From assembly GCA_951406725.2 (NCBI GenBank), contig OX597816.1, positions 132,308,001-132,372,000 on the forward strand: DNA of 64,000 nt, written 5' to 3'. This DNA is from Octopus vulgaris. Lineage: Eukaryota. This document shows, in pieces, positions 1,371-57,333 of the stretch; position 1 is the first letter of the stretch, and the number at the start of each line of letters is the position of its first letter. The notes below the pieces were generated by a model, which was not told the DNA's origin, searched no databases, and saw nothing but the letters and a program-made list of their open reading frames with translations. The translations under genes and the position numbers were made by a program.

Positions 1371-2059
1371 AAATCTTTATTTGACACAAGTAAGAGAAGA
1401 CAATTTAAAATAATGGCGTATGTATTTGTCTGTCTCTGCCTTTTGTTTGCTGGTCAGCACTTCAGTGTCAAATTGTATCTTTTTCTATTAACAAGGTATC
1501 TTAGCCATTTGATAAATAGAGATCAGCCAAATATGTACTGCACTGAGGTCAATATGCTTGACTGAAAACCTTGATAGCAGCTGTGATAGACAAGAAATCC
1601 GCATCTAATATATATATTTTTTATACATATGATTTTAGTTTTTAAAATTAAATTTTACTGAAGATTTTAAAAGGACATTAGAAACTCTCTCAAAATTATA
1701 GGTCATACTTTACAATTTCCATTTGGAGAACTTTGTAACCAGAGTTGCTGTAACTCAAGTCTAATCTGTATATTAGATTTGTTTCAGATATAATTATTTT
1801 TTGGATTTTCAAGTTCAGTCTGAAAATGCTGTTTAGACTTCACTTTCACTAACTATTTGTATTGTTTTGCTATTTTCAGTAACCATTGCAAATTGCCATG
1901 ATAAGTTGTTGGAACTTGGCCAAAGGAGCAGATTTAGTTTTGCTTGCTGCTACCTATTATCATTATTCTTCCAAAAGAATGGTGTGTCTTATTAGAAATC
2001 ATCATCACCATCATCATCATCCCTGCTGCTAGAAATTAGGGTTGCAGATTGAGAGAATA

Positions 2060-18832: not shown

Positions 18833-18959
18833 GGAGATTCCAGTGAATACTAGGCCTGTGATGAGTTCAAAAAATGGAACTAAAGCCCCCCTCTGTAAAG
18901 TCTGCGGGGATGAGTCATCGGGCTTCCATTATGGAGTTGATTCCTGTGAAGGATGTAAG
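18833..18959 (+). CDS. Nuclear receptor (NR1 subfamily) exon encoding the first zinc finger
   Basis: Polypyrimidine tract plus AG at 18831-32. Frame from 18834 reads [42 protein letters not shown], with an in-frame ATG at 18861. GT donor at 18960 is phase 0 right after CEGCK, the conserved NR1 intron position. This exon is not in the ORF track. Confidence 0.95.
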
Positions 18960-19224
18960 GTAGGAAGTTCGGTTTATATTTTTATGGGTTTTTTTTTCTT
19001 TATTTATAATACATAGAAAAGGGGTAAAAAAAATAATTCCATATATATTCTTAAATACCCTTTTACTAGTTTCAGGTTTTAGCTGGTCATGCTGGTCATG
19101 CTGGGGTGCCAACATCTAAACATATATATATGAGTAAAGGCATGGAAATGAGTGAAGCTAAGAGTAGCTTCCAATTCAAATGAATGAATATATAGTAGCA
19201 TTTCAAAATAAAGCACAAATATAT

Positions 19225-19421
19225 TGGTTTATAATTTTGGCAGAAGGCCAGCTGTTTCAGGAGAGGGGATAAGTTGATTACAGCAATCACAGTGTTCAAC
19301 TGGTACTTATTTAAGCGACCCTAAAGATGAAAGACAAAGTAGACCTTGGCTGAATTTGAAGTCAGTACATGGAAACAGATGAAATGCCACTCAGCATTTC
19401 ATTCTGCCAGCTTGCCACCTT
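19225..19421 (-). mobile_element. Family A SINE
   Basis: TTTGGCAGAAGGCCAGC...CAACTGGTACTTATTT...GATGAAAGACAAAGTAGACCTTGGCTGAATTTGAA...TTCTGCCAGCTTGCCACCTT. Confidence 0.75.
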
Positions 19422-19955
19422 AAACACAAGTAAATATGATAGTATATTTATGATGCATTTTTATTTAAATAGGTATCGTGACACTAATACTATAGATCAT
19501 CATCATCATCATTTAATGTCTGTTTTCTATGTAAGCATGGGTTGGACAGTTTGGCAGGATCTGACCAGCAGGATCAGGTCCCACATGGTTTTTGTAGCTG
19601 GGTACTCTTCCTAATGCCTACCACTTCACAGTGTGTACTGGGTACTTTTTCCATGACACTGCTATGAAAAGAAAGGAAAAGGGAAAAGCTGCCTTGATTG
19701 AGTTGAAGTGTATTTAAAGGAGGGTAAGGTAGATTTAGGCTAGGAGTGGTGTTGATGGCTAAAGTATGATAGAGAGACGAGCACAGGTGTCTTGCTATAG
19801 AGGTGACACATGGATACCGTGTATTTATGTAAAGGTAAGTGAAGGGAGATAAAGATATTGGTAACTAGGTGCCAGATATTACTCTCCAGGTACAAGAAGA
19901 TGAATATAAGGAGAATATAAACAGTGGTGAATCAGAAGGAAAGGAGAGGATGGAT

Positions 19956-19989
<34 letters not shown>

Positions 19990-20547
19990 CATCATCATCG
20001 TCATTTAACATCCACTTTCCATACTGGCATAGGTTGAATGGTTTGACCAGAGCTGGTAAGCAGGAGAGCTGCGCCAGCTTCGGGTCTGATTTGGCTTGGT
20101 TTCTGTAGCTGGATGGTTTTTTTTACTTGGCACTGGCACAGGTGCTACATAACGTAGTGCCATCAGGTGAATTACTAGAATTAGCAGGCTGTTGGATAAA
20201 GCACCTTGTTATGCTTGGTTTTGTTGCTTTATGTTCTCAGTTCAAATCCAACTCCATCCCACTTTGCTTTTCATCCTTCTGGGGTTGATAAAGTAAACAC
20301 CAAGTGATAAAATAAGTGCTGAAGTTGATGTAACTGACTATAGTATAGTAGGCAGCAAGTAACCCAGCTTAGCCTCAGGTCAATGACTGAAAGTAGTGAA
20401 AGTATGTACTGTGTGTGTGTGTGCGCGCACGCTATTAAACTTTATAAACACAAATTTGAGACAGAAAAGAGTAACAAGCTGAATGATAGGTCTCAAGCCA
20501 TCTATCTTTCAGTAGATGCCTAGGCCCATAAAAACTTATTTTTATAA

Positions 20548-20548
<1 letters not shown>

Positions 20549-20638
<90 letters not shown>

Positions 20639-20644
20639 CTCTCT
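20549..20644. repeat. (CT)n microsatellite
   Basis: More than 40 CT units. Similar tracts lie at about 25200, 48525-48600, 48915-48955 and 62648-62682. Confidence 0.97.
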
Positions 20645-21442
20645 TGTTCTCTTGTTGTTCTCATTTATCTTTTATTTACAGTTAATTGTTTTTGTATCAT
20701 ATCACTTTATACCAAAGTAGTTTTCCTCTCACTTTTTCTTCCTTTTCTCTCTCCCTTTCTCTTGCCTCCACCTCTTTTCCCTGTATCTTTCTCCCCTAAC
20801 TCTTCCTGCCACCTCACTCTGTACTTTTGACCATTTACATCTTAATCCGTAATTTTATACATTAACTGAACTGACATTTTCTAATCTGATTCATTACATT
20901 TTAGATTAAAATTACATTGTTGCCATTTTTGTTGTTGTGCTGAGGAATGCAAGATGAGTGGCAAAAAAACACTAGAATGCCAAAACACATAGATCAAAAT
21001 AGTTAAGCCACTTCGCATTGTGAGTTCAATTCCCAGTCCATTCTACTTAGCATTCCATTTTGTAAAATTGATATTGTAGGCACAAGAAATACAAGATGGG
21101 GAAGAGAGGAATGGCCAGCAATCAGTTCATATCAACTGTATCCTTACTCTGAATTAAAGTGTGACTTTATTCCAATGGAAGAAGTTGTTGCTGCTGCAAT
21201 TAAGTGACAGAATCAATAACAAGACCTTGTCTTACAGTGATATCTAAGTTGCTTCATGCTCTGAGTGCAAAAACGTCCTGGCTAAGCTTTTCCCTTACTT
21301 ACTTTAACCCTGTGGTATCCTAATCAGCCTTATCCGGCCCAGATATTCTACCTGTTTTATGTTCAAACTGACCAGATCAGGCCTCTCACACTTACCTAAC
21401 AAGGTCATTCTAAAAATAGACAATCACAAAGCTACAAAATAA

Positions 21443-21748
21443 CTGGCACTCTGTCAGTTACAACAACAAGAGTTCCAGTTGATCCAATTGACGGAACAGC
21501 CTGTTTGTGAAATTAATGTGCAAGTGACTGAGCACTCTAGAGACATGTTCTCAGAGAGATTCAGCATAACACAGAATGTGACAATGCTGGCCCTTTGAAA
21601 TACAGGTACTACTCATTTTTGCCAGTTGAGTGAACTGGAGCAACATGAAATAAAGTATCTTGCTCAAGAATACATGTCACCAGGGATTGAACTCACAACC
21701 TTACAATTGTGAATCAAATACCCTAACCACTAAGCCATGTGCCTTCAT
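21443..21748 (-). mobile_element. tRNA-derived SINE (family D, Meta/V-type core) with 12-bp TSD
   Basis: Minus head GAAGGCACATGGCTTAGTGGTTAGGG (A box)...GAGTTCAATCCC (B box)...CTTGAGCAAGATACTTTATTTC. Flanked by GCTACAAAATAA at 21431-42 and 21749-60. Confidence 0.9.
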
Positions 21749-21769
21749 GCTACAAAATAATGTATGATA

Positions 21770-22133
21770 AATTGAGCACTCAGAGAGTGCAAACTGCCAC
21801 CAAGGCATCACCAATGTCCTCTCAACGATTAGCCAGAGATGATTTTTAAAATATCTGAAATAAACTTGACTCTTCTCACAAACAAGAATACTAAAAATGA
21901 ACCCAACTGCTCTCAAAAATTAAGTAAAAACACAGGAAAAATAATTCAAAATTCTTGTCTAGTGCCTGATCAATCCCAAAATCTAATCAGTTCATGCCAG
22001 TCATGAAGCCAAACATCCCTGAAAGTTTCATCGAAATCCATTTAGCAGTTCTTGTGATATCTTGTCCACAGACAAACAAACAAACAAACATGACTGAAAA
22101 CAATACCTCTGCCTTTGCTAAGGTGGAGGTAAT
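21770..22133 (-). mobile_element. Non-autonomous Helentron / DINE-1-like element (HINE)
   Basis: Minus strand begins ATTACCTCCACCTTAGCAAAGGCAGAGGT (terminal stem-loop), then (GTTT)n, and ends GCACTCTCTGAGTGCTC (hairpin). A second copy lies at 59531-59880. Confidence 0.85.
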
Positions 22134-23732
22134 AAATAAATATTACGTTTTATATAAAGTAATCTAAATGCTAAAGGATTAAAGCTACTAAAATTATAAC
22201 CAGTGAAATACTAGTTCCTCTAATTGGCTATACCATCATCATAACACTTTTAACATCCACTTTTTCCTTGTTTGCATAAGTTAGATGGAATTCATAAGAT
22301 TTTCTATGACCAGGTACCCTTCTTACCCAACCCTCATCTGTCCGAAATGAAGTAGATTTTCTCTATGACCAAACATGTTTTTATGGAAGATTGGAGAATG
22401 AAAGACACCACCAGTATGATGGTGGTGCTTATTTGCAACTGTTATGTGATAAACAAAATAGGCTTCTTCCAATTTCCTTCTACCAGATCTCACATGGCTT
22501 TGGTTATCTGTGACTATTGTAGAGGGGCCACACAGTTGGATTGAACCCAATGCGATGTGTTTAGGAAGTAAACATCATAGCCTTCTACTAAAGAAGGCTG
22601 GAGTTTTAATATTAAGATACACAATCAGTATTTATCACTATCCAGGCTAGAACCTTTGCCATTACTACTGTCATACTATGCACCACTGTGCTGTGCATGT
22701 TGTCTTCAAAATCAGCTTTGGTCTAGGTTAGAAATTGTATTACCACAAAAATTTGTATCACTAGGTGCTTCTTTACACCATTCCCTTGTGCAGCTGTTAG
22801 ATATGGCCAATGAGAGTGGCAGACTTACAAATACTGGAACAATTTGCTCACTCTTACGATTGCCAAATGCTCTGGTATCAAACTTCAAAGTTCATCTGCA
22901 CAAAAAGCATCTCAATTGGTTCGGTCACACACTCCATCATCCACAAGATGAACTTGTCCTTGCACCAGAACTTATACAGGGACAGTGTAAACCATTATTA
23001 GGTGGACAGTCAATTTTTGAATCTAGCTAGTCATTGTGCATACACTCATAACTAGTTGATGATTGCTATGTGATCACCAGGCACAATTAACTTCAATTTG
23101 TGGTGATACTGTGAATTCATTGTTTCAGGTCTGGTCAACTCATTCTGGGGAAAGATACAAGCACAGGTACTATTGTGAAGGCTATCACAGTAGATTCTAA
23201 GTGATTAGATGTAGCAGTCTGGATTTAATTTATGTTTGGAATTATTTCATAGCACAAATCTTCTGGGGAGAGGCATAAATGCCACCCCTTCCCATTTCTA
23301 TTTTTACCTATTTCTGACTTAGAATTAAAATGTCCAAGTGGATGATGTGTATGGGCATCTTCAGTACAAACTTGTTGTGTACCTAAATTAACTTTAAGTC
23401 TGTCCACCTGGTTGTGAATGTTACTTGTTATAGGTTAGCATGCTATCCCTGGGAATTTTCCCTGCATCAGCTTAATGCTCCATGGAGGCAGCTAATTATA
23501 TACTATTTTAAAAGTTGTTAGAAAACTATGAGAAGCAACCACGTATTTACATTTAGTTCTGATTCCATGTTTTCTGTTGTATGATTTTACAAAATCCACC
23601 ATTAATGCAGAGGAATACATGCACATGTGCACACAACACACTTCCTGTCTACCAAATTTTGCTTGTGGCTATTGTAGAAGAAAGACATCAGTCAACAGTG
23701 TCTGTAGTATAATCAATGGGAACAAGCCCTAA

Positions 23733-23779
<47 letters not shown>

Positions 23780-24317
23780 TGACCTATAATAATTTCATTC
23801 ACCATTGACCTTACCTCATCCCCTGTTTGCCGTTCATTGCATTCATCTATATCTCCTCACACTGTCAAGAACTTACCACTCTTGTTTTTTCTGTCTCTAT
23901 CCCCCTCATTTGTGGGTATGGCCTTACACCTCATCATTACCACCTCTCTCTCTCCAGTTGGTTTAGCCATATATCTCCTCTACTGCAAAACACTTGTTTT
24001 TATCCCTTTATCATACACCTGGCATCTAGCTGTCTCTTTCAGTACTACACCATCACTCAGTTATAGAGTCTTGTGAGTTACTGAGTGACCTTAATAGTTC
24101 CAGTGACACAAAAAGCAGTTGGTACGCATCGTAAAGTGGTTGGCATTAGGAAAGGCATCCAGCTTTAGGAACCATGTCAAAGCAGACATTGGAGCATGAT
24201 TCAGTCCTCTTGCTTGTCAGATCCTGTCAAACCATCCAACCCTTGGCAGCATGGAGTATGGATGTTAAATGATGATGAGAGCAATATGTAATTAAAAAAA
24301 AAAATAACAACAATAAA

Positions 24318-24629
24318 AACTGGCAGTCCCTCAGTTACAATGATGAGGGTTCCAGTTGATCCAATCAACTGAACAGCCTGCTCATGAAATTAACATGCAA
24401 GTGGCCTAGCTCTTCACAGACACGCATACCCTTAACATAATTCTCAAGCAGATTCACCGTGACACAGAATATGGTAAGGCTGGCCCTTTGAAATACAGGT
24501 ACAACCCATTTTTGCTAGCAACATGAAATAAAGTGTCTAGCTCAAAAGCACAATGCACCACTGGAAATTAAATTCACGACCTAACAATTGTGAGTTGAAT
24601 ACCCGAACCACTAAGCCATGCGCCTTCAC
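24318..24629 (-). mobile_element. tRNA-derived SINE (family D), second copy
   Basis: Colinear with 21443-21748: AACTGGCA...GTTCCAGTTGATCCAAT...GCTGGCCCTTTGAAATACAGGTAC...AACCACTAAGCCATGCGCCTTCAC. Confidence 0.9.
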
Positions 24630-25197
24630 AAACGATATATATAAATACATACATGCACATTATTGCCCATTTACCAAATGAATTAATTTTTTTAAGATAG
24701 TTTCAAAAAAACTTCTACATTATTCAGTGTATCCATAGCAAAAATTAACTCCCATTACTTTAAGTATCTTTGTAAGAGGCAGCCATTAAATGGTATATTG
24801 ATGAAGAAATATTTTTTTAGGATTGCTTCTTCAGCAAGAAATTTGAAGTAATAGAAATGTAGACAGTCTTAATTATAACGTAATTGTATAATTACACAGC
24901 TAGACATATTGTTTACTCTTTGCTTTGTTCATACTATTACTTGAAAACACACACACCATCATCATTATCATCATCATTGCATTTTAACATCCACTTTTCC
25001 TAGCTGGCATGGATCTGGCCATAATTTTAGTGAAGCAGATTTTTCTACAGTTTGGGCATTTCCCCATGTCTAACAAACTAGGAGCAGCCCAGATATTTCT
25101 GAACAGAGGATTGCAAACAAATGAAACCATTTGTGTGAATGGTGATTCTCTGTTTACAATCTACATATACATGGACACAACATGGAGAATTCATACT

Positions 25198-25251
<54 letters not shown>

Positions 25252-26041
25252 TGCATATGATTGGCTTCTCCCCATTCATGTCCACCAAATTTCATTCACA
25301 AGGCATTGGTTAACTTGCAGCTGTAGTAGAAGACACTAGCCAACACCATCTGCACAATAGGTACAAACCTTAAACCACATACACACACATGTGTGTGTTT
25401 GTTAACAGTTATGTTTTTTTCTTTATGTTGTTTCATTTCTAGGACTGTAATTATATCATATATCTGTGTAAATAGGTAACAAGTTTTCCATTAAGATATG
25501 TTATATTGAAGAGAAAACATGACTAATGATTGTATTTATAGTGTGTTTGTGTTTGCATATGTATGTATGTTTATTACATCAAAAGTTAAGTCTACTCTGA
25601 GTTTTGCCTTCGGCTGGGCTGGGCTGTCAGTTTTTGATGTTATAAACATACATTTCTCTCCATGCTGCCCAACATATTGAGTTCAGTAGCAGATAATGTT
25701 TATACTATGTAAAATAAAAAAAGTCTATTTTTTAATATAATTTACAACTCGTACATTATGATGTGTGCGTGTATGTATGCATGTATGTGTGTATACATTG
25801 CGTACATACATATGTAGGTATGTGTATGTATGTGTACATTGTGGCCAAATGATTAGCAACTAAATCACCGCACCTATCCAGTTTATATGGGGAGGAGTAC
25901 TTCACAGGATTAAAAACAAAATCTGGAGAGGAGATAGGCACCACCAGTTCAGCTGCCTATTGAAATACACACTGTTGTGCATCTACAACTCCTTCAGGCT
26001 ATGGATTTAGGTTAAATGAATAATGTGTGTTTGTGTGTGTG

Positions 26042-26071
<30 letters not shown>

Positions 26072-26075
<4 letters not shown>

Positions 26076-26280
26076 CTGTGCCGGTTTGGTCATGTGGTGG
26101 GTGTGGATGAGGACAGCTGCATAAAGAAGTGCTGAGCTCTGGTTGTGGAAAGAAGCTATGGAAGGGGTATACCCAAGGAGACGTGGGACGAAGTGGTGAG
26201 AAAAAGGGTCTTCAGTCACTAGGCCTCACTGAGGAAATGGACAAGGGACAGGGAGATGTGATATGCTGTATTTGAAAAGA
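26072..26280 (+). mobile_element. RTE-clade LINE remnant (post-RT C-terminus, pseudogenised)
   Basis: Translates KLCRFGHVVGVDEDSCIKKC*ALVVERSYGRGIPKETWDEVVRK, matching the RTE motif RLRWFGHV...GRGRPxKTW. Confidence 0.8.
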
Positions 26281-27639
26281 TGTGTCGATCCTCAGGAAAA
26301 TCGCTGGCATCCATACCTACAGGCCCATCCTTTGCAGGTGCCGGTACCACATGAAATACACTTGTGCCAGTGCTGTGTAGATGCACCCATGCCAGTAACT
26401 TATGAAAGTCTTCCAGCTCATTCTATAGAGTGATTGGTGTTAGAAAGGGCATCCAGCTGTAGAGACCATATCACAACAGACAATTGGAATCTTGACAGCT
26501 CTCTGAGTGGCCAGCTACACTTTTCTAAAAATTCTAGTCACTGCATTGAGGTTCTTTTGATGGTGTGTGTGTGTGTGTAGGTAGGTTGTATGTGTGCAGA
26601 GTTCTGTACATATCTGTATTTTGATGCTGGCTATGATATCTGCTTGGTTTCTAAAATTAATTTTTCTCAAGTCGTTGACTCCACAAACACTCGCCCCTGT
26701 CCCCACTTCCATCTCATCCCCATAATACTATTAATCTTACTCTTACTTTATAATTCTTTCTGAGTGTTGAGTATGAAGTAAGTTGTCCTACATTAACATA
26801 CCTTTAGCAAGTGTTCCATGAACCACCAAGGAATGCCATGTTAACACAACATAGTGCTTACTTTCTCTCTCTCTCTCTTTAGCATCAGATAAATCATGTG
26901 ACTTACACAACATATGTTAGTCAAGACCTTACACTATTATCCTTCAAATAGGACAAAAAGTTAGCATACCACTCCTCCCTCCCCCACGAACACACAAGCA
27001 CACACACACACACACACACACTTTTCTTAACCGTTCTTTTTGCTGTCTTTGAAATTGTCAGTCAATGAATTTACCAATGGGTGCCACCAGCTGCTCTTCA
27101 GCATTTTTCTTTCTTCAATTATTCCCCAAACAGTATTCACATCTGTATGTTTATTTTCTTTATATACTTTTATTTTTCATTGCTGTTTTAACTGTAATTC
27201 TATTCTTAAGCCTAACCTTTGTGCTTAATTTTCTTTCTTTCTTTTTCTCCTTTCAATTATTTTGTGAAATTCTTCAAACTTTCAGTTGTGTTTAAGAATT
27301 AAGATATTTTGCGATGAAATGGCAAATTTTTAGGCAGCATCGGCGGCTACAACAGGAGCAGCAACTTTAAAGAATATTGCAAAATTGATCATAATTCACT
27401 CAGTTACATAATCCTTCCTTTCATAACTTCTATCTTTTACTCATTTGTCTTCAACTCTTATGTCAGTTTTTAGCTTTCTTATATCATGTGTGACAGTTAG
27501 TCAGAATCATGTACTGGGCACTTTTTTGTGGTATACATTCAGATATCCGGAAAGAATAGAAGATAGAATGTTGCATTGAGTTAGTGGTTGTAGTATTTTG
27601 ATGATTGAGGGTTTACCAATGAAGAAGATAGTCCCATAG

Positions 27640-28040
27640 GTGTAGGTATGGCTGTGAGGTAAGAAGTTCACTTCGCATCCACATGATTCTGGGGTCAGTC
27701 CCACTGCATGGCACCTTGGACAAGTGCCCTCTGCTGTAACCTTGTGAGTGGATTTGGTTGATGAAAACTGAAAGAAACTTTTTGTGTGTGTATATATGTG
27801 TGTGTATCTTTTACCATCTCCTTGTCTTGACATCGCATGGTAGTTGTAAATGAGTATCATTGTCAAGCAAGCAGTGTCTTTCATTTCCAGTCTTCCATGG
27901 AAACATGTCTGGTCATAGGGAAATATTACTTTGCATGAAAGAAGTGAGGGTCAGTGGCAAGGAGGGCATCCAACAGTAGAAAATTCACATCAACATATTC
28001 TGTCCATCTTATGCAAGTATGGAAAAACCATAATGATGAC
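27640..28040 (+). mobile_element. Family B SINE with RTE-like 3' tail
   Basis: ATGGCTGTGAGGTAAGAAG...GGGGTCAGTCCCACTGCATGGCACCTTGGACAAGTG...GAGGGCATCCAACAGTAGAAAA...ATGATGACGA. Similar copies at 60232-60600 and 63505-63840. Confidence 0.75.
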
Positions 28041-30374
28041 GAATTACAAATTGTACCATTGTGAATGTTGAGGTAATGCTGGGCTAGCTCTTGTTCAGGA
28101 GTGAAATATTTTCTGACTCTCAAAATGAATATTAACCTCTGAATTGAATGTTACTAATATGAGAAAAGAGAAAAACATTGCTGATCATAAGGCCAAGCAT
28201 TTGTTGGGCAAGTAAATATTTCAGTTATATATATTATTAATGAGTAGTGAACGTGTTCTGTTGTGTATATTTACTTGATATGTGTAGTATTTGTTAACTT
28301 GATACTGGTGAATGATAACAAGAGTTGTGTTTCTCCTTGGAAGACATTTTTTAAATTTCTGTTTTGTGGACGTTATATTTTACATACTTGGTAGGTAGTG
28401 TTCAAGGTTAGTGTGAATGAAACCTACGCACTGAAGGTTTTGGTAGGTGGAGATTCCATCATCTGGTTTGGAATTGGAATGTTTGCATGTGTGGTTAGAG
28501 GTGAAAACAAGCAACTCATCAGTGTAAAGGAAGAAAAATATTTGATCTATTTTACTATAGTCACATATGAAAATAATCTCTCTCTTTCACACACAATCTT
28601 CCTTGTAGCAGAGTAAATGCAGTAACAAGAGCTCAGTTTTTTGTTTAAGTCAGATTCCAGAAGCAGTTATGATGCGACTGAAACTAACTTGGTCATTGTG
28701 ACTTTACATACAGTATGATGAATACAATTTTTATACACATTAAAAAAGAAAGTGGCGTTGTAGTTATTGAACCAAAGTAATTGAGATGTGTTTTAATAAA
28801 TATTTCTTACACTTGTAGAAGACTGCAAACCTAATCATTTAGCATCAATCCAAAGACATGACTGCATAAGAATGAAAGTCAATGTTTTTAACAGCCTGAC
28901 GGTATTTGAACTCCCAGTATAAAGGGACATAACTAAATACTACAAGGCAGTCTAGTGTTGTACTGTCCTTGACACTCAGCCACAATTAGAGAACTGCTCT
29001 TAAATATAACTGCAAATATTTTGTGACTAATTAAATAATTGTTAAATATAATAAATATTGTAATTTTAAAAAGCATTGAACAATTTATATTGTGTTTTAG
29101 GTGTGAAAGAATGCACTTTGCATTGCAGATGTTTCTTTTTGGTCTTCTTTTAATATATGGATAAAATATCCACTTATACCCTTATAGCAACTTCCATTTT
29201 ACACACACACACACACACACTTTTTCTCTCTCCCCCCTTGTCTTTCTTTCTCATGTTTTTCAATTTATTCTCAATTATTTTTTCATGATTTTCTCCTGCT
29301 CTCCACTATTCCTCCTTCTATCTCACATCCCTCCTTCCTTGCCTCTGTTTGTTCAATTCACTCATATCTCTCCCTTCCTACATCTCCAATTCTATTAAAT
29401 CTCTGCTATTTTCTTCCTTTTAAACCACAATAGATTTTAAACTGTTCAATATCTTTTCTCAATTTTCTTATTTTCATTCACAATTTATCTTCATATTGTC
29501 TAACTTGGTTTTTCTATCTTTCATTTTTATCAATCTTATTCCAATATTTTTAATATTTTTTTCTTCTAGTTCAATCTTTCCTAGCTCTCTGCTTCTTTTT
29601 CTTTCTCCCTCTCCCCCCCATTTCTTTTTTGTTTTTTTTTTCCTCCTTAGCTCTGCCTTCAATTACAATTTTCCTCCATATTTCATCCAATAAAAGTAAA
29701 GATGCTGATGATGATATTAATAAGAATTCAGATATTTTCTTTCTTCTTTCATTCATTATTTTTAACATATTCCCTCTACCATTTTACCTCCTTTTCCCCA
29801 TTGCTAAATTCTGAAGCAGATAGATCACTAGTATTACAAGAATGGCAGCCATTTTGTACTGGCTAGATAGATAATAATCAGTTTGATTAATTGCTAGGCT
29901 TTTTTTGACCAGACTGACATGTCCAAAACTCTTTCCTCTATGTAATATTGAAGTAACTTCAAACAGCTGTCTTTGGGCTTGATAGGAGAAGAATTTAAGA
30001 AGAAAATAAATGAATAAAAAATATAAGCAAAAAGAAAACCTTACTAAATATTTAATTTTGTAATGATTTGGTCAGCATTGTGTAATTTTGTTCACTATAA
30101 GATTGCTTTGATGGTGTTTTTCGCAATAGTTAACAAAAAAAAAAAAAAGAAACATTTTAATATTTATGTCATTGAAATTTTTATTTACTACTATTACTAC
30201 CACTACTGCTGCTACTTCTACTATCATCATTATTAGGTACAAGAATTCAAATTCCACCAAGGTCAACTTTGCCTCTCATCTTTTCAGTAGTAGTTTAACA
30301 CTGGGGCCAATGTAATCAACTAGCTCCTCCCTTAAAATTTCAGGCCTTGTGTCTGTAGTAGAAAGAATTATTAT

Positions 30375-30945
30375 TGAGTAAAAGAGAAGCACATTCCATC
30401 AAAGTGACACTGGGATACAAATATACAATGCTCAATAAATCCCTCATGACTACCTGTCTAGTAAGGGTACACCAGGCACATGCATCACAATCATATGTAC
30501 ACAACATGGTGACCTTGCAACATATATGCAACATGGTGACACAGCACTTGACCTTGCAGGTGGGGCCCAGTTAGAATTTTCCTCAGGTTGAGTAGCTCAT
30601 CCCACTCAAAAGGTCCCTGTATAAGAGTTGTTTAATGATGATGAACGAAACATTCATGTTTCCAAACACAAATTATTCAAACACCAAAGAATTCCTCTCA
30701 ACACATAGCTTTGATGCTCCCCCACTTATCTTGCTCGTGATCAGAGATACATATATCGTCAGCCGCCAAGGGACATGCTCAACTGGTTATGGTCAAACAA
30801 CTGACAAGCATATCTGTGATATTGAGTAGAATATTTGTCGTAGCCTATCTTTTACACCGAGGCAAATCATGTACATGTTAACATTTCTAATTAGTTAAGA
30901 TCAGAAGTTATGAGAGCCACTGCTTGGTACTGCATCAGGATGTTT
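30375..30945 (-). mobile_element. Unclassified interspersed repeat of about 570 bp between (ATT)n-like tracts
   Basis: Block of higher GC with CpGs, bounded by ATTATTATT and TTTATTATTTATT. I recall it as an abundant octopus repeat but did not determine its class. Confidence 0.45.
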
Positions 30946-30959
30946 ATTATTTATTCATT

Positions 30960-31185
30960 TAAGGCAAGAAGCTGGCAGAATTGTTTGAGCATTAGTAAAA
31001 AAATTCTTTGTAGTATTTCTTCTTAATTATTATGTTCTGAGTTCATATTCCACCAAGGTTAACTGCCTTTCATCCTTTTACAGGACCGATAAAATAAACA
31101 CCAGTCAAGCATTGGGGTCAATATAATCAACTAAATCCCCTTCTCTATTAAAATTACTGGCATAGTGCCAAAATTTGAAACAATG
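30960..31185 (+). mobile_element. Family A SINE, near full length
   Basis: AAGCTGGCAGAATTG...GTTCTGAGTTCATATTCCACCAAGG...GCCTTTCATCCTTT...GATAAAATAAACACCAG...GTGCCAAAATTTGAAAC. Confidence 0.8.
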
Positions 31186-31333
31186 ATTATATTTATTTAA
31201 TTTTTGTTTTTTATTTACATATACTGGCATGCTTGCATGTATCAGATAGTTATTTCTTAGAGCAGTTGCTTTTATTGTGAAGTAGGAGAAGAACTTCATT
31301 TATCAGATAGGCAAACTTGGAACAGTTGAATTA

Positions 31334-31495
31334 CTGTATTTTAACGTGTATAAGGAACCTCTTAGTTTTGGGGGCTTAAAATTTGGAAAAAAGGTTTTGT
31401 AAGAGATTATAATACTATCCATGTATAAGAAACTCCCATATATTTTTAGCCTAATTTTTGACAAAAATGGGTTCCTTATACATGTTAAAATATGG
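31334..31495. mobile_element. Tc2/pogo-like MITE (162 bp) with TA target duplication
   Basis: TA|CTGTATTTTAACGTGTATAAGGAACC ... GGTTCCTTATACATGTTAAAATATGG|TA: 26-bp TIR with 3 mismatches, all CpG-decay type. Confidence 0.88.
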
Positions 31496-31635
31496 TATGT
31501 GCCTTGTCAGGATCACATTATCACTGTTGTAAAGCTAGAACTAATGTCCATCTAGTCAGTTGTCCAGGAAGTTAATATTAGAATTATCTTTCTTTCTTTC
31601 TTTTTTTGAGAACAGAGAAATAGTGGAGAGAATTT

Positions 31636-31693
31636 ATGAGCTGGATGTATTATTGGAGAGTCTAATGAGCTGAATGTATTATTGGAGAGTCTA
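31636..31693. repeat. Two-copy 29-bp tandem duplication
   Basis: ATGAGCTG(G/A)ATGTATTATTGGAGAGTCTA twice. Confidence 0.9.
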
Positions 31694-33019
31694 GTTTAGT
31701 GTCTGAGATATGTTAATTTGTGGTGTCTACTTTTTATCCTTCTGTTATCTTTCCAATAAAGGTTAGTTAGGACATAAATTCTTTTACTAAAGAACACCAC
31801 TAACCATTTTAATGTAATAAAAATTGATTGCTTGAATTAGTTCTGGATCACAAATTGAAAATGGGATGAAGGTGGGATTTAAATGATTTAATTAATCTCA
31901 TTGCCTGATTAGTGTGTGACCAACCACATCAGGGTCGTGTCAGTAAGGGATTCTCTGTTTAATAGAAATAGCAACCAAAAATCTCCTTCAAATTACATCC
32001 TACCATCTTTACTAAAAAAAGGGCACTTTAGATAATATAGATGTGTGTACCTTTAAAAATGATTATGGATGGAATACCTTTGATCAAAGATCCATTTCAT
32101 CAGGACTGACCTTAAAATAAACAACCACCCTGGAATGGTTGAAGAAGAAAAAAAGTTCATTACAGGAAAATTTTATTGCTTCTGCAACCATCACAGAGGG
32201 TTTTAATGTGTTAATCTTAAATGGTGTGTTGTTGATCCCTAGGTCAATCCTGATGGAGCAGACATATGATCATAAGCATTCCAACCATGACACTTCTGTC
32301 TGTTTTCTTTTTTAAAAAATGATGTGATTTAAAGGAGATTTGTCTATTATGTGTAGGCAGGTTGAGTGATAATACTGAGTTTCTGTCATTGACTTGTGCT
32401 CTCTTTCTGGAATGGTTTATAGAAGTCAAAATAAATGAAGTTATTTCTGCAGGATTTGTGTTTTGAAAATCATAAGAATGTTACCAAGTCGAACAGAGAT
32501 GAATATTCAGTCAATTCAATAACTTGCTCGATTTCTCTTTAACCATTCAGTTACCAACCAGCATGGGACTGCCTACAAGCTTCCTGTTTTAAAGTGACTT
32601 ATATTAAACATTCTACCAAATGTGTCATGTTAATTTTTGTTCCAAACGCCAGTTTAACAGTAATGAAGTTATTTTACTAAATCCTTCATTATTTTCAAAA
32701 TTTATTGAAGTAAAGGCAACATATTCTGGCAAATGTGGTTTAAAAAAAATGTGGAGATGAAGAGATAATTATATATTGACCAGTAGCTGTTGACATGGTA
32801 TTGGTATGACACAAGATTGGTTTGATTAAAATCAATGAACCAGTTATAAACTATGCAATAAATGCAATTTGTTAACTCCATCATTTGATAGTCTTTTAGT
32901 GTGTGTGTGTGTGTGTATGTATTTACAGAAAATAAAGTAAATTTCAAATGCAGTATAGCTGTAAAAACAGCAGAAAGATTGAGTATTTTACCCTTATAAG
33001 ACAGAAAAGACTATCAGCA

Positions 33020-33089
33020 GATAGCTACAGGACTTGAACTTGTATCCCTCAGGTACTGGTTGAGTACTCTACCATTAAGCTAAATGGCC
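33020..33089 (-). pseudogene. tRNA-like relic (Thr-AGT-like) or tRNA-derived repeat head
   Basis: Minus: GGCCATTTAGCTTAATGGTAGAGTACTCAACCAGTACCTGAGGGATACAAGTTCAAGTCCTGTAGCTATC. It has an A box, an anticodon arm CTCAa-CCAGTAC-cTGAG and a B box GTTCAAGTCC, but the acceptor stem does not pair. Confidence 0.55.
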
Positions 33090-34458
33090 TATTGACATCA
33101 ATCACCATCAAATTAAACGCGAAGTAATAATAGTTTGTGGAATATATATATATGAATACTGCAGTATATATGCCGTTTAGTGATAGATACATGTGTAGTA
33201 AATGTGTACATACTTTGTGTGTATAACAAATGCCATGTATGAATTTTTACATTTGTGTATATGTACTTGTCCCAAATGTTATGCTGTATGACCAGACCTA
33301 GAGCCATCATGATGCAACTCATATAGAGAGAAATTATTTAGTGTATGTTTCATGGGAAGAAAGGAGTAAATGATAGAGGAAGGATTGAGAATCGTGGTTG
33401 TAGCGGATTCCTCATTGGCTAGAAACATATTTGTTGTTTGGTTTCAGGTCTCTTCTGATTTAATAAATTTTTGATGAAGGCCTTCATGACCATCTTTCTT
33501 TATGTATATTAGGGATTATGGAACTGGGTTGTCTTATTCTGTATTACTCTTTCCTTAACAGTCTACTAATTTCTTTTTCTCTCTCCCTCCTTTTGTACTC
33601 TATTTTGCTTATTTCTTTTATATTCTGTCGGTCTCCTTTGTGTGTGTAAATATATGTACATATAAGTTTGTGTATGTATATAAATATAGCTGTGTTTATG
33701 TATATAGTTGTGTATGTGTGTAAAAAAGAACAAAAGACTATGTACTATCTAGGTAGGTACATTTGAAAAGCAGTTGAATATGGACATTATTGAGAGATAC
33801 TGAGAGAGAGATATATAGTATGAGTATCATGTCAGAAAGAGTGATAGAAAGAAGACCAAAAAAAAAAAAAACAATGATCAATCAGTGCAGACAAGCATGT
33901 GTGTGCACACAACATACACACACTTGCAAACAAACACACAAATACATGCACTCCATATGGCTTCTAAGGTGTAAAAATAACTCAGACAGACAGGAAAATT
34001 ATTTTAATAATAATATAGATATGTAAAAACAGTTCTATTTTACTATGTGAACCAGCGTATGTTCTTGTACATTTGCTTATGTACATTCTCACCAAACTAC
34101 TTTGGCAAGTATACATTGTTGATGAGGTTGTAATAAGGTAGAACATGTCCAAATTTTCTGTTGTGCTTGCTGAAATAATTGAAATTATAACTAAATTTGA
34201 ATTAATTACTGATTTTTCTAACATAGCTAAAATAGTCTGCTATTGTTTTTCTCCTCATTGAATAATTATTTTGAATTTGCATTAAATATATCTATGGTGG
34301 TTTAACTGAATTATTCCTTCTGTACAAATATAGACTCATGGCTGATAGTTTTGTTTAGGACATTGTTTCATATATGAAGATATTAAAATTTTAAAAATCA
34401 ATTGATACATTTCTTCTTTGATTTGCTACATTTTTTTTCCATTTTTGTCTGTCTTTAG

Positions 34459-34600
34459 GGATTCTTCCGGCGCTGTATAACACAAGGGATGTCCCACAAA
34501 TGTGCTAATGAAGAGAAATGTGAGATCACTCCATTCACAAGAAATAGCTGTCAGTATTGTCGCCTTAAGAAATGTTTTGCAGTTGGAATGTCAAGAGAAG
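34459..34600 (+). CDS. Nuclear receptor (NR1 subfamily) exon encoding the recognition helix end, second zinc finger and start of the CTE
   Basis: Acceptor tttgtctgtctttAG (34457-58). Phase 0 start continues from 18959: GFFRRCITQGMSHKCANEEKCEITPFTRNSCQYCRLKKCFAVGMSRE. Donor AG|GTATGT at 34601 is phase 1, the conserved position after GMSRD/E. Confidence 0.96.
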
Positions 34601-37600
34601 GTATGTTTACCATAAACCATTGCCTAAAATTTTCTTTCTTTCAGTGCATATCTGCGTGTGGCAGTAGAGAGTGCAAGAGCGAGAGAAAGTTATTATAAAT
34701 GCAATCCATCAAGAAGTGAAGTGACGTTGCTGTGAAGACTTAAACTGACAAAATTGTTTTAACAGGAGTTTTGAGGAGGATAAAGATATGCTAGAATAAA
34801 GCCAGTTTTTCAAATGGATCACGTTATTAATAAATCTTTTTGTAGCTCGAGGCAATCTGAATGTTTAAAATAATATGTGACACACACCTTGATTTCATAT
34901 AAACATCTGATTGTCATGAGGTTGTAAATTTACATATATTGTCATTATCTTTTAGTAGATTATTTCTATTCTAACATCACTTGTTAAGTACTTATACAGT
35001 CTGAAACATTCTGCTTTCCGGATTGCAAAGTTCTGCACATATCTCTAGTCTATTGATTTCAGTGTAACCTCATCATTCAATTGAAGTTGTTTGCTATAAC
35101 CATTATTGTCTTGGATATAATACATACTGTCCTGACATTTAAGACATAGGATATCATTGCCATTTTAAGATAGCAAGTTTGTTCAAGGAAATTTGGCTGT
35201 AGAAGCTTGTATTTTAGCTTAGTTTCATACACTTTAGTGTTTACATAGTGATGTGTTTTATCAATTATTTTCTATTTGATTGTCTCTACAGATTCATATT
35301 GTTTGCCATGAAGTTCTGTTGTTTCTATGAATTAACTGGGTTATCTTAAAATTGTCTGCCTACAAAACCTAAAGATAGCTACCTTACACTTAAATATAGA
35401 TTGATAAAAGGAAAATTTTGATATTTCCAGTAAATTACTTTGTGAATAGTTGTTAATATAACTTACTTGAAAACCATCTTGGTAATATTTTAGCTTCTAT
35501 TATGAAAACTTAGAGATTCCCCAAAATTTAATTAGTTTAAACTGAATTGTGTATTTTATAAGTTTTAGTGAGTTGTTTCATTGTTTTTCAATCATTTAAA
35601 GCATCAAAGGACTGGAAATTATTGCATTATAGTCTCTGAAATATAGATAAGATGTTTTAGGATATTTAATCGTTGTTATAAAATGCTCAGACCATTTCAG
35701 ATTTCATGCTTGGAACAATTTTGTAGTTTTGATGTTAGTGAAAACAAATACCAATTAGAGTCTTTAATATGGGTAAATATAGGCTGAAATGTTAGGCCTG
35801 CCATCTTGCAAGTGTTCCTGATTGGGAAGCATTCTTGTTGTTTATTTGTTAATGATGTTTATATCATTTTTGATTTTCTTACCTAGAACTTTACAGTTTA
35901 TGAATGTAGTTTATAACTGGGGTTTCACAACAACATGTTAGAAAATGTTTTAATTCTTTTAACCTGTTGATTTGCCAAACACTCATCTCAGGTGTTTAAA
36001 ATCTGATTGATAAACATCTATAAACTTAGCATAAGCTTAGAGATTTAATGGCAACATTATAATCTTTGCCATTTCAATAGATTCGCTATAATCCTAATAG
36101 TAATTTTAAATAGTTTCAAATCCAAAAGCTTTCTCATATTTTTATGGTTCCATTCACGTTTATGGTAATGTTAAATAAGTTATGTAGTTATCATTTATTA
36201 CTTTAAGTGAACATTAACCTTCATATCTTTTCAGACATCATATTTAGGTTACTTTGCATCTGTAAAATCTGTCCCCTAAAATATATCTGGTATAATGCAA
36301 TATTAAAAATATTACTTGTAACATGTGGATCAATACCTAATTTCAGTTGTTTAGCCCAAAATCAAACCTGATCAAGCATTTATTTCTTCATTTATTTATT
36401 ATTCTGTTTGAAAAATTAGGTTTCTATTCCAAGTGAGTCAGGTAAAGAAATACTCATTGGTTTACATCTATGTATGTCTTTAATTTAATTCTATCATTAA
36501 ATTTTCTTTCCCCCATGGCAATTTGCAAATTGTAACCACTTTATTTGCATATTGTACTTAACTATTGTGTTTGGTTGTACATCAACCAACTGGAATGTTT
36601 TAAATGCAAGCCATTCTGATACTTAACTGTTCAATAGCTTCTTAATGAAAGCCAAAACCTTTTATATGAAATAACAGTAGAATTCATGAATAAATGTTTA
36701 TAGATTAGTAAATGTATGTGTTTGTATGCATCAAAATGTAAAAGGTATTGACTTCATTCTTCATAAATTAATAGCTACTTCTGTTGAGTTGTTCCTTTCT
36801 TGTTCATATTAGTACTAGATTCTGTTTTCTGACTTTAAAAGCCTCTGTAAATTCGTTTACTTCATTGTTCATTGCTACACAGTTGAACCTGAGACAGGTT
36901 TTAAGAGGAACATCTCGGACCTGTTTTGTAAGGAGTCAAAGATTGTTTCTTGACACTTGATAAATATTGATACATGAAATAAACTGCCGTCTCACCATCC
37001 AAACATGAGTGGTGTGGTTTGAAAACTCTACCATGAACTCTTATGTTTTTACAACGCAGATGCATAGTTCTTCAGTATGTACCAACTGTTAAGTAAACCT
37101 TACAGGTATGTACATAGAGGAGTGGAGCAGGACACTCATTAGAAACATTTCAAACTTGCCTTTATCACATTAATTACTTTGATTCTCCTCCTCCAACCGT
37201 TTCTGTTTTTCCCCTTTTTTTTTGTTTCTTTATAAAATTCAAAGGATAGAAATAATTGAATATATTAATGGTGCTTTCACCTTTGGTAAGATTTGCATTC
37301 AGAACCAGGAGTGGTTTGGATACACCACATTATATATCTTGTTCAACTATCACTTAAAAGATTACTAGTTTGTATTACATCATATATAAATATACATATA
37401 CATCTGCAATAGAACAGGTGTAATTTATATTAACATAATGATGAATGCAATATATATATTTCTAATTAATGGACATGTACAAACTTTGAGATAATTTGTT
37501 CCAAGTTGTGGTGTAATGCTTATAGTGATGTGAACAGAATACTGTGGATTTCCAAAATTAGGCAGAATAATCCATAAATTGTGGAGCCCTTTCACAAAGT

Positions 37601-54941: not shown

Positions 54942-54983
<42 letters not shown>

Positions 54984-55180
54984 CATACTTCATCATCATC
55001 ATTTAGCGTCCGTTTTCCATGCTAGCATGGGTTGGACGGTTCAACTGGGGTCTGGGGAGCCCGAAGGCTGCACCAGGCCAGTCAGATCTGATATATATGT
55101 GTATGTATGTGTGTATATATATGTATGTGTGTATGTATGTATGTATATGTGTATGTGTGTGTATATATATATATATATAT

Positions 55181-56165
55181 CTGTAAATGTAATAGTTGAC
55201 AATTATTCGGTAGCCATGATAAAACCCCGAGTTTCGGATACTGAGGTGGAAATCCACACCACCATCTCTTCAATTATCCGGCCATCGGAAAAATGCTATG
55301 AAAAATGACCATTATAGAAAGGGAAATTACTCTGTGATTAACCGTTATTAAGACAAAAGAGCTATTCGAATGACCACTGAGTAAGGAGAGGAAGTAAAGT
55401 AAGGGGGTAAAAGGTTCATAGTATTCGCGTAAGCACGCCTGTTCATATCTACACATGTGCGCCCGCACACCCACGTGCGTGCGCCTAGAGGTATACATTC
55501 ATCTACACTCACTTGAAAACGTACACATCCTTCACCAAATGTATATGCATATACATACAAACCCACATACACACACGCGCACCATAAAGGTTCATACATG
55601 TGTCTATATATGCACTAGCAAAAACAGAGCTAAGGGTAACAATACAGAAAAAAGGTGTAAGGGAGTATGCAAAGAGTAAACTACATCTATATATGCACAT
55701 ACTCATGCACGCACGCCTATATACATGCATACCCGCACATGTCTATATATGCACGCACACATACGCACACAAAAAAGTTCATACACGTCTATATGCGCAC
55801 ATACACAAAGCAGAGCTAAAGGCAAAAATACAAGAAAATGTGTAAACAAACAATGAGTAAAACATGTCTATATATGTACATACTCGCATGCATGCATACA
55901 CACACATCTATATACGCGCACACACGCACACAAAAATATATATACGCACAGGGAAAATGCAGGGTGCTATACACCAATATCTCTATAAATATGTGGCAAA
56001 TATATATATAAAAATATATATAAATAAAAGTATATATGTAAAAGGTATAAAGAGATATAAAGCTTGTACATGGACACAATATAGAAGGCAAGTCCTATCT
56101 GTAATCTGCGGGGGGACCAAAAACATAACAAATATTTGGCCACATGCAAATAGTTACAATTTTTT
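55181..56165 (-). mobile_element. Probable 5'-truncated Penelope-like retroelement (Neptune-like) 3' fragment
   Basis: CpG-rich block ending in (TA)n. Its minus-strand start encodes frameshifted KIVTIC/HVAKYLL, resembling the PLE C-terminal motif (E)IVSxCxHxxK(F/Y)LL. It has an internal CA-rich tandem of about 185 bp and a hammerhead motif near the 3' end. Confidence 0.6.
55206..55290 (-). ncRNA. Type-I hammerhead ribozyme motif (C3U variant)
   Basis: Minus RNA: GAUAA-UUGAAGA-[31-nt stem II]-GAAAC-UCGGG-GUU^UUAUC. Stem I GAUAA/UUAUC extends through UGGCCG/UGGCUA. Stem II is capped by GUGG-AUUU-CCAC. Confidence 0.7.
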
Positions 56166-57282
56166 TGACTGACTTTTGTCAATGTTATGATTTTTTTTTT
56201 CCCTTTTGACATTTGATAGCCATTACTTTTAGCTTATTTTAGAAGCAAATTGCATGTAATTTTGTTTACAGCTGTTAGTTCAGTGTCAATTTTAACATGG
56301 AGTGCAAAAACAAACATTTTCACCATATTTTGCTTTTTTATTTCCATAAAGAAAGCAAGAAAGCTGCTGAGGCTCACAAAGAAATATGTGAAGTTTATGG
56401 TGTTGATTGCTTAACAGAATGCAGAGATGGTTTTAAAAAGTCCATCCTGGAGATTTTTCACTCAGACCAATGTTCTGATTGACTTACTGAAGTTGATGAT
56501 GACCAAATCAAAGCCAAACTGAATCTGGTTGTCATATAACTGCACGAGAGATTGCAGAAAGGTTAAATTTATCACATGCAATTGAAAATCACTCATTATG
56601 GGTTCCACATAAATTGTAAGAGATTCACTTATGACAATGAATCAATATTTGCGATATGCATCTCAAACAATAAAATTGACCTTTTTTTAAGCAAATCATC
56701 ACTGGTGATGAAGAAAGAGATTGTCTACAATAACATCAATCAAAAACGATCATGGTCCAAATGCAATGAACCAGCGCAAACCACATCGAAAGCTGAATTG
56801 CGTTAAAAAAAGGTCATGTTGTCAATTTGGTGGGATTATAAAGGTGTTGTGTATTTTAAGCTGCTTCCATGGAATCTAACAATCAATTCAGATGTTTACT
56901 GTCAACAACTAATGAAACTGGAGTAAGCAATCAAAGAAAAATGACCAGAATTATTGGAGCTTGGTTGGGAAGTGATGTCACATCAACCATGTAGCCCAGA
57001 CCTTGCACCATCAGATTACCATTTATTTCGAAGTTTGCAAAATTCTTTGAATGGTAAAACTTTCAATAATAATGATGATGACCTGAAGTTACTCTTATTT
57101 CAGTTTTTGGTTGATAAGGATCAGAAGTTCTATGACCACAGAATCATAAGTTGCCAGAAAGATGGCAAAATATCATAAAACAAAATGGAAAATATATAAA
57201 TGATGAAAGTTCATTCTTTGTCTGAAAAAAAAATGCCTTTTATTTCACACTAAAAAACCGAAATTACTTTCTTGCCTACCTA

Positions 57283-57283
<1 letters not shown>
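56166..57283 (+). mobile_element. Decayed mariner (mellifera-subfamily-like) transposon
   Basis: Right TIR reverse complement TTAGGTAGGCAAGAAAGTAATTTCGGTTTTT, followed by TA at 57284. The left TIR is absent. A transposase relic lies inside. Confidence 0.92.
56297..57200 (+). pseudogene. Mariner DD34D transposase pseudogene
   Basis: MECKNKHFHHILLFYFHK..AAEAHKEICEVYG (HTH), WVPH (about 56600), IITGDE, KVMLSIWWDYKGVVYFKLL, TINSDVYCQQL and [21 protein letters not shown]. Multiple stops and frameshifts. Confidence 0.95.

Positions 57284-57333
<50 letters not shown>

What the first reader, a model, noticed from the sequence alone, without database searches (positions are those of the whole stretch)
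55206..55290. Hammerhead ribozyme antisense to the nuclear receptor intron
Seen, minus strand 5'->3': UUCCGAUGGCCGGAUAA | UUGAAGA (55273-67) | GAUGGUGGUGUGG-AUUU-CCACCUCAGUAUCC (stem II) | GAAA C UCGGG GUU^ | UUAUCAUGGCUACCGAA. Stem I pairs GAUAA/UUAUC flush against the core and extends about 8 more bp past a bulged A. Stem III is minimal and quasi-palindromic (ACUCGGGGU). Predicted cleavage falls between 55223 and 55222. Established: this is type-I hammerhead topology (CUGANGA...GAAA...NUH), and minimal stem III forms occur in Penelope-like elements and retrozymes and can act as dimers. Unusual: the long stem II and U at position 3 (U3-G8 wobble), which strict CUGANGA searches would miss. Inference: a cephalopod PLE-borne ribozyme family; this copy may be attenuated.
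Basis: partly seen in the sequence, partly recalled or inferred. Interest (0 to 1): 0.8.

Follow-up and report, generated by a model that had tools for sequence, protein, structure and literature searches.

The report
Decayed Penelope-type hammerhead in octopus intron
This is one worn copy of a very common octopus repeat carrying a hammerhead (self-cutting RNA) motif of a known kind, likely the tail end of a Penelope-like jumping gene; its odd catalytic base is a private mutation, and because it points backwards it cannot cut the likely host gene's own transcript.

Summary
The motif is at the stated coordinates and is not chance. In four DNA runs from three species labels, 1,664-4,321 contigs per run align to the stretch, so it is a high-copy repeat. 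The family has the canonical C at core position 3 (98.6-99.6% by depth) and a stem III that is palindromic around one central base. U3 and the broken palindrome belong to this copy alone. A second sub-lineage differs at 9 of 30 stem II positions and keeps every pair. The repeat ends about 40 nt past the predicted cut site in a (TA)n tract and thins out 5'-wards, with no recurrent tandem joint. That fits a truncated Penelope-like element (PLE) end; no RT/endonuclease ORF could be linked, so the carrier is inferred. It lies antisense in a probable nuclear-receptor intron. Long helix II, palindromic helix III, U3-G8 and an extra base before GAAA all have precedent in Cervera and de la Pena 2014. 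Cleavage is untested. The scan has noted this kind elsewhere in this genome. Verdict: new member of a known kind; low interest.

The parts
55206..55290 (-). Whole type I hammerhead motif (decayed copy)
55274..55287 (-). Stem I, 5' strand (pairs with 55208-55222; 13 bp, bulged A55217, one A.C mismatch)
   Evidence: pair probabilities 0.63-0.95
55267..55273 (-). Core 3-9, UUGAAGA; position 3 (55273) is C in 98.6-99.6% of family depth
55237..55266 (-). Stem II: 4 bp, 1x1 mismatch, 3 bp, 1x1 mismatch, 4 bp, 4-nt loop (55250-55253)
   Evidence: pairing kept in a second sub-lineage (table 7)
55236..55236 (-). Unpaired C between stem II and G12 (family trait; C to U in 7-11% of depth, a CpG site)
   Evidence: no indel listed here; also present in the single-contig loose ends at 55247
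55232..55235 (-). Core G12 A13 A14 and A15.1
55224..55232 (-). Stem III, 3 bp plus 3-nt loop; 55226 is A in over 99% of family depth, making the 9-mer palindromic around its central base
55222..55223 (-). Predicted cleavage site after U17 (GUU triplet); not tested
   Evidence: hammerhead numbering applied
55208..55222 (-). Stem I, 3' strand
55181..55380 (-). High-copy 3'-terminal part of the repeat (about 200 nt, putative pLTR-type end); stops about 40 nt past the cut site
   Evidence: depth profile and loose ends; depth about 9-11 times higher at 55347-55364 than at 55410-55427
55281..55378 (-). Three degenerate 32-33-nt units, each starting with a GGTCA-type word
55381..55950 (-). Lower-copy upstream part of the repeat, with degenerate units about 180 nt apart and simple repeats; 5' limit uncertain (clear to about 55530)
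55092..55180 (.). (TA)n/(CA)n microsatellite abutting the repeat's 3' end (likely insertion target)
18834..18995 (+). Host nuclear receptor gene, first zinc-finger exon region (approximate tblastn limits)
34459..34602 (+). Host nuclear receptor gene, second zinc-finger exon; last exon found in the window
   Evidence: 47 aa 100% identical to octopod proteins; tblastn

Best explanation
The 85 bases are one mutated copy of a type I hammerhead motif carried by a high-copy octopus repeat, likely the 5'-truncated 3' end (pseudo-LTR) of a Penelope-like retroelement inserted into a (TA)n tract, and this copy is likely inert. Shown: the repeat is abundant. Its majority state has C3, a palindromic stem III and a stem II whose pairing survives sequence change. 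This copy has U3 and a U-G in stem III. It points opposite to the nuclear receptor gene. Inferred: in an intact element, two motifs from tandem ends would pair through the palindrome (8 intermolecular bp around one mismatch) and cut slowly after GUU. Copies were reverse-transcribed from RNA that still spanned the cut site, because genomic copies run about 40 nt beyond it. After insertion this copy drifted. The receptor pre-mRNA carries the complement, which has no hammerhead, so it cannot be cut in cis.
For: (4 of 4 DNA runs, species labels A, B, C): 1,671, 4,321, 2,688 and 1,664 contigs laid, mostly 90-95% alike. C at 55273 in 98.6-99.6%, A at 55226 in 99.3-99.7%, C at 55240 (G-U to G-C) in 96.8-99.6% of depth. 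The loose-end consensus at 55239 (29-63 contigs per run, agreement 0.69-0.77) differs at 9 of 30 positions without gaps. All 5 differences at paired positions keep pairing, one as a double U-A to C-G change, and the other 4 fall in the two mismatches and the loop (hand comparison). The 3' loose ends at 55197 are AT-rich with low agreement (0.53-0.61), which points to dispersed flanks. Depth falls 5'-wards. The architecture matches PLE variants with small palindromic helix III and long helix II (PMC4209133). O. vulgaris has 31 recently active Penelope-like families (PMC13282606). In an Anolis PLE, uncut RNA is the main insertion template (PMC11167929). Host gene on the + strand.
Against: No RT or GIY-YIG ORF is linked: none is recognisable in 55183-56140 (by eye), no genome is held, and the collection searches gave no true copy. 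Rfam gives no hammerhead hit. The family lacks the extra base between positions 9 and 10.1 that the PLE consensus has, and instead has one before G12. Variant frequencies come from unphased contigs. Eight of the 9 sub-lineage differences are transitions, which often keep G-U or G-C pairing by chance. Several minor variants (55228, 55235, 55236, 55279, 55280) are CpG transitions and say nothing about selection. Depth also depends on likeness to this copy, so the 5' fall is not a copy number.
Confidence: 0.75

Rival explanations
1. The motif is a solo monomer of a non-autonomous element: a non-LTR retrozyme or a SINE-like unit of about 200 nt or more with its own promoter. It would be copied by PLE enzymes but would not be the end of a coding PLE.
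For: No coding sequence upstream. Depth steps about ninefold near 55380, as if many copies were a short unit. Stem I is long. Retrozyme monomers are common and dispersed (bioRxiv 10.64898/2026.07.22.740005, passages). Earlier AI notes report retrozyme arrays in this genome (not checked here).
Against: No recurrent fixed-period 'goes back' joint: 1 of 15 joints shown and 2 of 15, each a single contig (4 and 10 more not shown). The 3' loose ends do not continue into a common next unit. Homology continues 5'-wards at lower depth to at least 55530.
Confidence: 0.17
2. This copy is a functional, possibly domesticated U3-G8 ribozyme that regulates the nuclear receptor gene through an antisense RNA.
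For: All three stems can still form. A U3-G8 core is listed for one PLE-linked motif. Conserved intronic hammerheads exist in amniotes (PMC3088659 passages).
Against: It is on the strand opposite to the gene. U3 is found in at most 1.4% of family depth. This copy departs from the majority state at many positions, inside and outside the motif. It is the only copy in the window, so it has no tandem partner. The catalytic fold is 1.9 kcal/mol above the MFE.
Confidence: 0.04
3. The repeat family is real, but its hammerhead shape is coincidental or long dead: the extra C before GAAA disables all copies.
For: No Rfam hit. Folding z-score -0.42. A flush stem II descriptor fails. No pile-up of contig ends at the cut site (table 6), though contigs cannot show RNA ends.
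Against: The family majority restores the canonical core, a palindromic stem III and stronger stem II pairs at exactly the positions where this copy deviates. A second sub-lineage keeps the pairing. One published PLE motif has AGAAA in the GAAA column.
Confidence: 0.04

Closest known systems
Type I hammerheads in the pLTRs of metazoan Penelope-like elements, variant with small palindromic helix III (mosquito, shrimp, Drosophila, rotifer; Cervera and de la Pena 2014, PMC4209133; read: main text parts 1-2 of 4, supplement file 2 part 2 of 3, figures not seen)
   Same: Type I order, CUGAAGA core, G10.1-C11.1, long helix II, short palindromic helix III, U17, mostly dispersed single copies in truncated elements. 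U3-G8 is listed once (Saccoglossus 1) and one GAAA-column entry reads AGAAA.
   Different: Helix II is 11 bp with two conserved 1x1 mismatches; stem I is 13 bp. There is no extra base between 9 and 10.1, but one before G12. No cephalopod row appears in the part of the alignment read. No PLE ORF is linked here.
Anolis Poseidon element PAc (PMC11167929; passages read)
   Same: Hammerhead inside the pLTR, with copies extending past the cut site. In PAc the ORF starts at the start of stem II; here an ATG also sits at the start of stem II (55265).
   Different: Here that ATG opens only 20 codons before a stop. PAc cleavage was shown in vitro and depends on C3-G8; nothing was assayed here.
Metazoan non-LTR retrozymes (PMC7229834, passages; bioRxiv 10.64898/2026.07.22.740005, part 1 of 5 and passages)
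   Same: Non-coding, type I hammerhead, low GC, can occur as dispersed monomers, PLE-related.
   Different: No tandem unit seen in the window or in the joints shown; no canonical 4-bp helix II with a terminal loop for the loop I-II contact.
Conserved amniote intronic hammerheads (RECK, C10orf118; PMC3088659, passages and section 8)
   Same: Intronic position.
   Different: Those are conserved, self-cleaving motifs; this is an antisense, diverged member of a high-copy repeat.

Membership tests
Type I hammerhead ribozyme | Core C3 U4 G5 A6 N7 G8 A9, G12 A13 A14, A15.1-U16.1, H17 | tested here: met
   Met by the family majority. This copy has U3 instead of C3.
Type I hammerhead ribozyme | Three helices in type I order, open end in stem I | tested here: met
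Type I hammerhead ribozyme | Stem II flush against G12 | tested here: not met
   One extra C at 55236/55237, family-wide. Core insertions are tolerated elsewhere (PMC3088659 section 8), and one AGAAA entry is.
Type I hammerhead ribozyme | Covariation in the stems | tested here: inconclusive
   5 of 5 paired-position differences in a sub-lineage keep pairing, one of them double. Unphased, mostly transitions, no phylogeny-aware test.
Type I hammerhead ribozyme | Site-specific self-cleavage | not testable with these tools
   Needs a bench assay.
Rfam hammerhead families | Match to a covariance model | tested here: not met
   No hammerhead hit at E up to 10 or at gathering score.
PLE pLTR hammerhead | Long helix II and short palindromic helix III | tested here: met
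   against PMC4209133.
PLE pLTR hammerhead | [quoted passage not shown] | tested here: not met
   Absent here and no insertion listed. Two rows of the published alignment also lack it.
PLE pLTR hammerhead | Lies in a repeat flanking an RT plus GIY-YIG ORF | tested here: inconclusive
   No such ORF recognisable in 55183-56140; no genome held; contigs too short.
PLE pLTR hammerhead | Dispersed, 5'-truncated copies ending in AT-rich or microsatellite targets | tested here: met
   3' end at a (TA)n tract, heterogeneous AT-rich 3' loose ends and 5'-wards falling depth. Depth is only a rough guide.
Non-LTR retrozyme | Head-to-tail units of 150-450 bp, each with a hammerhead | tested here: not met
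   One motif in the window; no recurrent tandem joint among the joints shown. Arrays elsewhere in the genome are not excluded.
Non-LTR retrozyme | Abundant circular RNA of unit length | not testable with these tools
   Only contigs, and RNA status of the runs is a guess.
Non-circularly permuted hammerhead | Core strands out of circular order, pseudoknotted wiring | tested here: not met
   The standard type I order accounts for all strands.

The most novel reading that the evidence does not exclude
The octopus family is a working hammerhead variant with a conserved C looped out between helix II and G12. That is the mirror image of the usual PLE extra base at 9/10.1. Together with an 11-bp helix II with two fixed mismatches, it would be carried on a short mobile unit of about 200 nt whose three GGTCA-type boxes act as an internal promoter.
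Probability: 0.2. Interest if true: 0.4.

Novelty: new member of a known kind. Interest (0 to 1): 0.17.

Why it matters
As a locus it matters little: it is one diverged, antisense copy of an abundant repeat. The family adds a cephalopod example to PLE-type hammerheads and shows why strict descriptors and Rfam miss them (extra base before GAAA, long helix II). If natural C3 copies cleave, the family offers a natural test of an insertion at the 11.1/12 junction, and of whether PLE hammerheads act only as dimers. It gives no evidence for ribozyme control of the nuclear receptor gene.

Tried and rejected
Own-genome search: no genome is held. Rfam: no hammerhead model matched in 3 of 3 scans; the miRNA and snoRNA hits were below gathering score and mostly over simple repeats. 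Metagenome pattern scan: 4 loci, all 4 dropped as chance, since on inspection they lack the stems and have no BLAST match to the window. Viral pattern scan: 0. Phage blastn: 0. No second copy in the window. Expression: no RNA holder listed. Three runs guessed to be RNA hold family contigs (233, 1,228 and 153 laid), but contigs show neither strand, ends nor level, so I draw nothing from them. No pile-up of ends at the cut site (table 6), which is uninformative for contigs. Opposite-strand joints (9 of 15 shown) would fit PLE inverted ends, but they rest on 1-2 contigs per run and several sit where the sub-lineage diverges, so they are not counted as support. Stem I and loop variants at CpG sites were rejected as covariation. 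Alternative core registers (G55266 as the extra base, or a longer N7) leave stem II without a closing pair; rejected by hand. Rewired topology, prompted by earlier notes, is not needed. A long ORF from the ATG at 55265 is rejected (stop after 20 codons). Literature: 8 counted searches found no description of this octopus family and no C3U kinetic data that I could read. Lunse et al. (RNA Biol 14:1499) is not held. File 1 of the PMC4209133 supplements, the paper's figures and repeat libraries were not visible and may already hold this family or this variant.

Full report
OBSERVATION. The core word is at 55273-55267, GAAA at 55235-55232, the GUU triplet at 55225-55223 and the predicted cut between 55223 and 55222. 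Stem I has 13 bp with a bulged A (55217) and one mismatch, with pair probabilities of 0.63-0.95. Stem II is 4 bp, a 1x1 mismatch, 3 bp, a 1x1 mismatch, 4 bp and a 4-nt loop. A type I descriptor that allows this extra base finds this one site in the window, against 0.07-0.17 per shuffled window (30 shuffles per setting); the flush version finds none. Against the motif: the MFE (-24.2) uses a non-catalytic register, the z-score is -0.42, and Rfam has no hammerhead hit in three scans.

THE FAMILY. No genome is held, so I used public runs. At 80% likeness, 4 of 4 DNA runs from three species labels gave 1,671, 4,321, 2,688 and 1,664 aligned contigs over 55185-55450. This is a high-copy repeat; the tool's depth is not a copy number. 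By depth the family has C at core position 3 in 98.6-99.6% and A at 55226 in 99.3-99.7%. The latter makes stem III palindromic around one central base. It has C at 55240 in 96.8-99.6%, turning G-U into G-C. The pair 55261/55242 is U-A here; the family has G at 55242 in 73-87% and C at 55261 in 20-44%. A loose-end consensus at 55239, identical in all four runs (29-63 contigs each), is a second stem II lineage. Compared by hand it differs at 9 of 30 positions without gaps: five at paired positions, all keeping the pair (one double change), and four in the two mismatches and the loop. No indel is listed at either side of the stem II base, so the extra C is a family trait. Caveats: the data are unphased, 8 of the 9 differences are transitions, and the minor variants at 55228, 55235, 55236, 55279 and 55280 are CpG transitions that carry no signal of selection. 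The three runs guessed to be RNA show the same majority letters but cannot show expression.

THE CARRIER. The repeat ends near 55181, about 40 nt past the cut site, against a (TA)n/(CA)n tract. The 3' loose ends at 55197 (13-25 contigs in three runs) are AT-rich with agreement of only 0.53-0.61, as expected of dispersed insertions. Depth is 8.7-10.6 times higher at 55347-55364 than at 55410-55427 and declines further to about 55530, with patchy cover beyond; divergence of this copy contributes to that fall. There is no second copy in the window and no recurrent fixed-period joint (1 of 15 and 2 of 15 joints shown go back, each a single contig; 4 and 10 not shown). No RT or GIY-YIG frame is recognisable in 55183-56140 (by eye). 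Pattern and BLAST searches of metagenome, viral and phage collections gave no true copy (4 of 4 metagenome hits dropped). A truncated PLE end is therefore the best fit but is inferred; a non-autonomous unit remains possible.

THE HOST GENE. The exon at 34459-34599 is 100% identical over 47 aa to Octopus sinensis and Argonauta nuclear receptors of about 1,050 aa. tblastn with three such proteins finds only the two zinc-finger exons, both on the + strand, covering aa 338-427 of 1,041; nothing later was found up to 64000 at over 50% identity. The motif thus probably lies in a long intron, antisense. The + strand has no descriptor hit, so the pre-mRNA cannot self-cleave here.

MECHANISM. Shown: family, majority core, palindrome, orientation, position. 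From established work: metazoan PLE hammerheads have long helix II and short or absent palindromic helix III, cut weakly and only as dimers or with a lengthened helix III, and mostly survive as dispersed single motifs (PMC4209133, parts 1-2; review PMC6765202, passages). In the Anolis PLE, C3G or G8C abolishes cleavage, cleavage is not needed for insertion in vitro, and uncut RNA is the main template (PMC11167929, passages). Inferred: intact elements pair two motifs through the palindrome and cut slowly after GUU; copies were made from RNA spanning the site; this copy then lost C3 and one palindrome pair. Its own 9-mer still self-pairs weakly (-8.7 kcal/mol). I could not read kinetic data for a single C3U change, so 'attenuated' rests on the C3-G8 pair being important and on U3 being near-absent from the family.

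COMPARISON. It works like a PLE type I hammerhead with palindromic helix III. The published alignment (supplement file 2, part 2 of 3) has mosquito motifs with 3-bp palindromic helix III, a PLE-linked Saccoglossus motif with a U3-G8 core, two rows without the 9/10.1 extra base, and one AGAAA entry whose row I cannot assign from the PDF text. Membership in a PLE is unproven (no ORF). Flush stem II and Rfam tests are not met. Retrozyme tandem structure is not met here. O. vulgaris has 31 recently active Penelope-like families (PMC13282606, passages), the giant squid genome paper counts 235 hammerhead 1 loci (PMC6962438, passage), and PLEs often target (TA)n (PMC8557442, passages). Eight literature searches found no description of this family; one key paper, figures and some supplements were not visible. 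Earlier AI notes describe dispersed type I hammerheads in (TA)n tracts and a decayed antisense intronic copy elsewhere in this genome, as well as retrozyme arrays and rewired hammerheads. They are leads, not support; no look-alike of this sequence was indexed.

VERDICT. A real motif and family, an ordinary locus. New member of a known kind, interest 0.17. The most novel reading not excluded is a functional core variant with a C looped out before G12 on a short self-promoting unit (probability 0.2, interest 0.4).

Noticed in passing
window 55281-55378 (-): Three degenerate 32-33-nt units. At 55376, 55340 and 55311 the family majority (87-99.7%) restores the same CGGTCA word in each. Candidate protein-binding or promoter array just upstream of the hammerhead; untested.
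   Followed up: partly
window 55228: The central base of the stem III palindrome is A instead of G in 52% and 59% of depth in two runs guessed to be RNA (X8, X20), against 13-18% in DNA runs and 9% in X9. Possibly a sub-lineage bias among transcribed copies; weak, contig-based.
   Followed up: no
window 55296-55305 and 55181-55190 (-): Pyrimidine runs ending in AG just 5' of stem I and at the repeat's 3' end resemble splice acceptors. In D. virilis Penelope an intron ends at helix I. Sequence impression only.
   Followed up: no
window 55400-55950: Degenerate units about 180 nt apart (spacings 181 and 186), interleaved with CA/TA-rich sequence, form the repeat's upstream part.
   Followed up: partly
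window about 56130-57285 (+): Decayed Tc1/mariner-like element: the ORF piece 56945-57178 and terminal inverted-repeat-like ends. The label is recalled and comes from no call.
   Followed up: no
window about 54960-55076: Another repeat with at least six partial copies in the window, ending in ATG triplet repeats; looks like a SINE 3' end (label recalled).
   Followed up: no
window 33019-33089 (-): Weak Rfam tRNA hit (30.4 bits, gathering score 29), probably a tRNA-derived SINE head.
   Followed up: no
window 18834-34602 (+): Nuclear receptor with NR1-like names among its hits (E75/NR1D/ROR; 'nhr-48' in Octopus sinensis and Argonauta). The DNA-binding domain is split by a 15-kb intron and followed by at least 29 kb without a detected exon.
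   Followed up: partly
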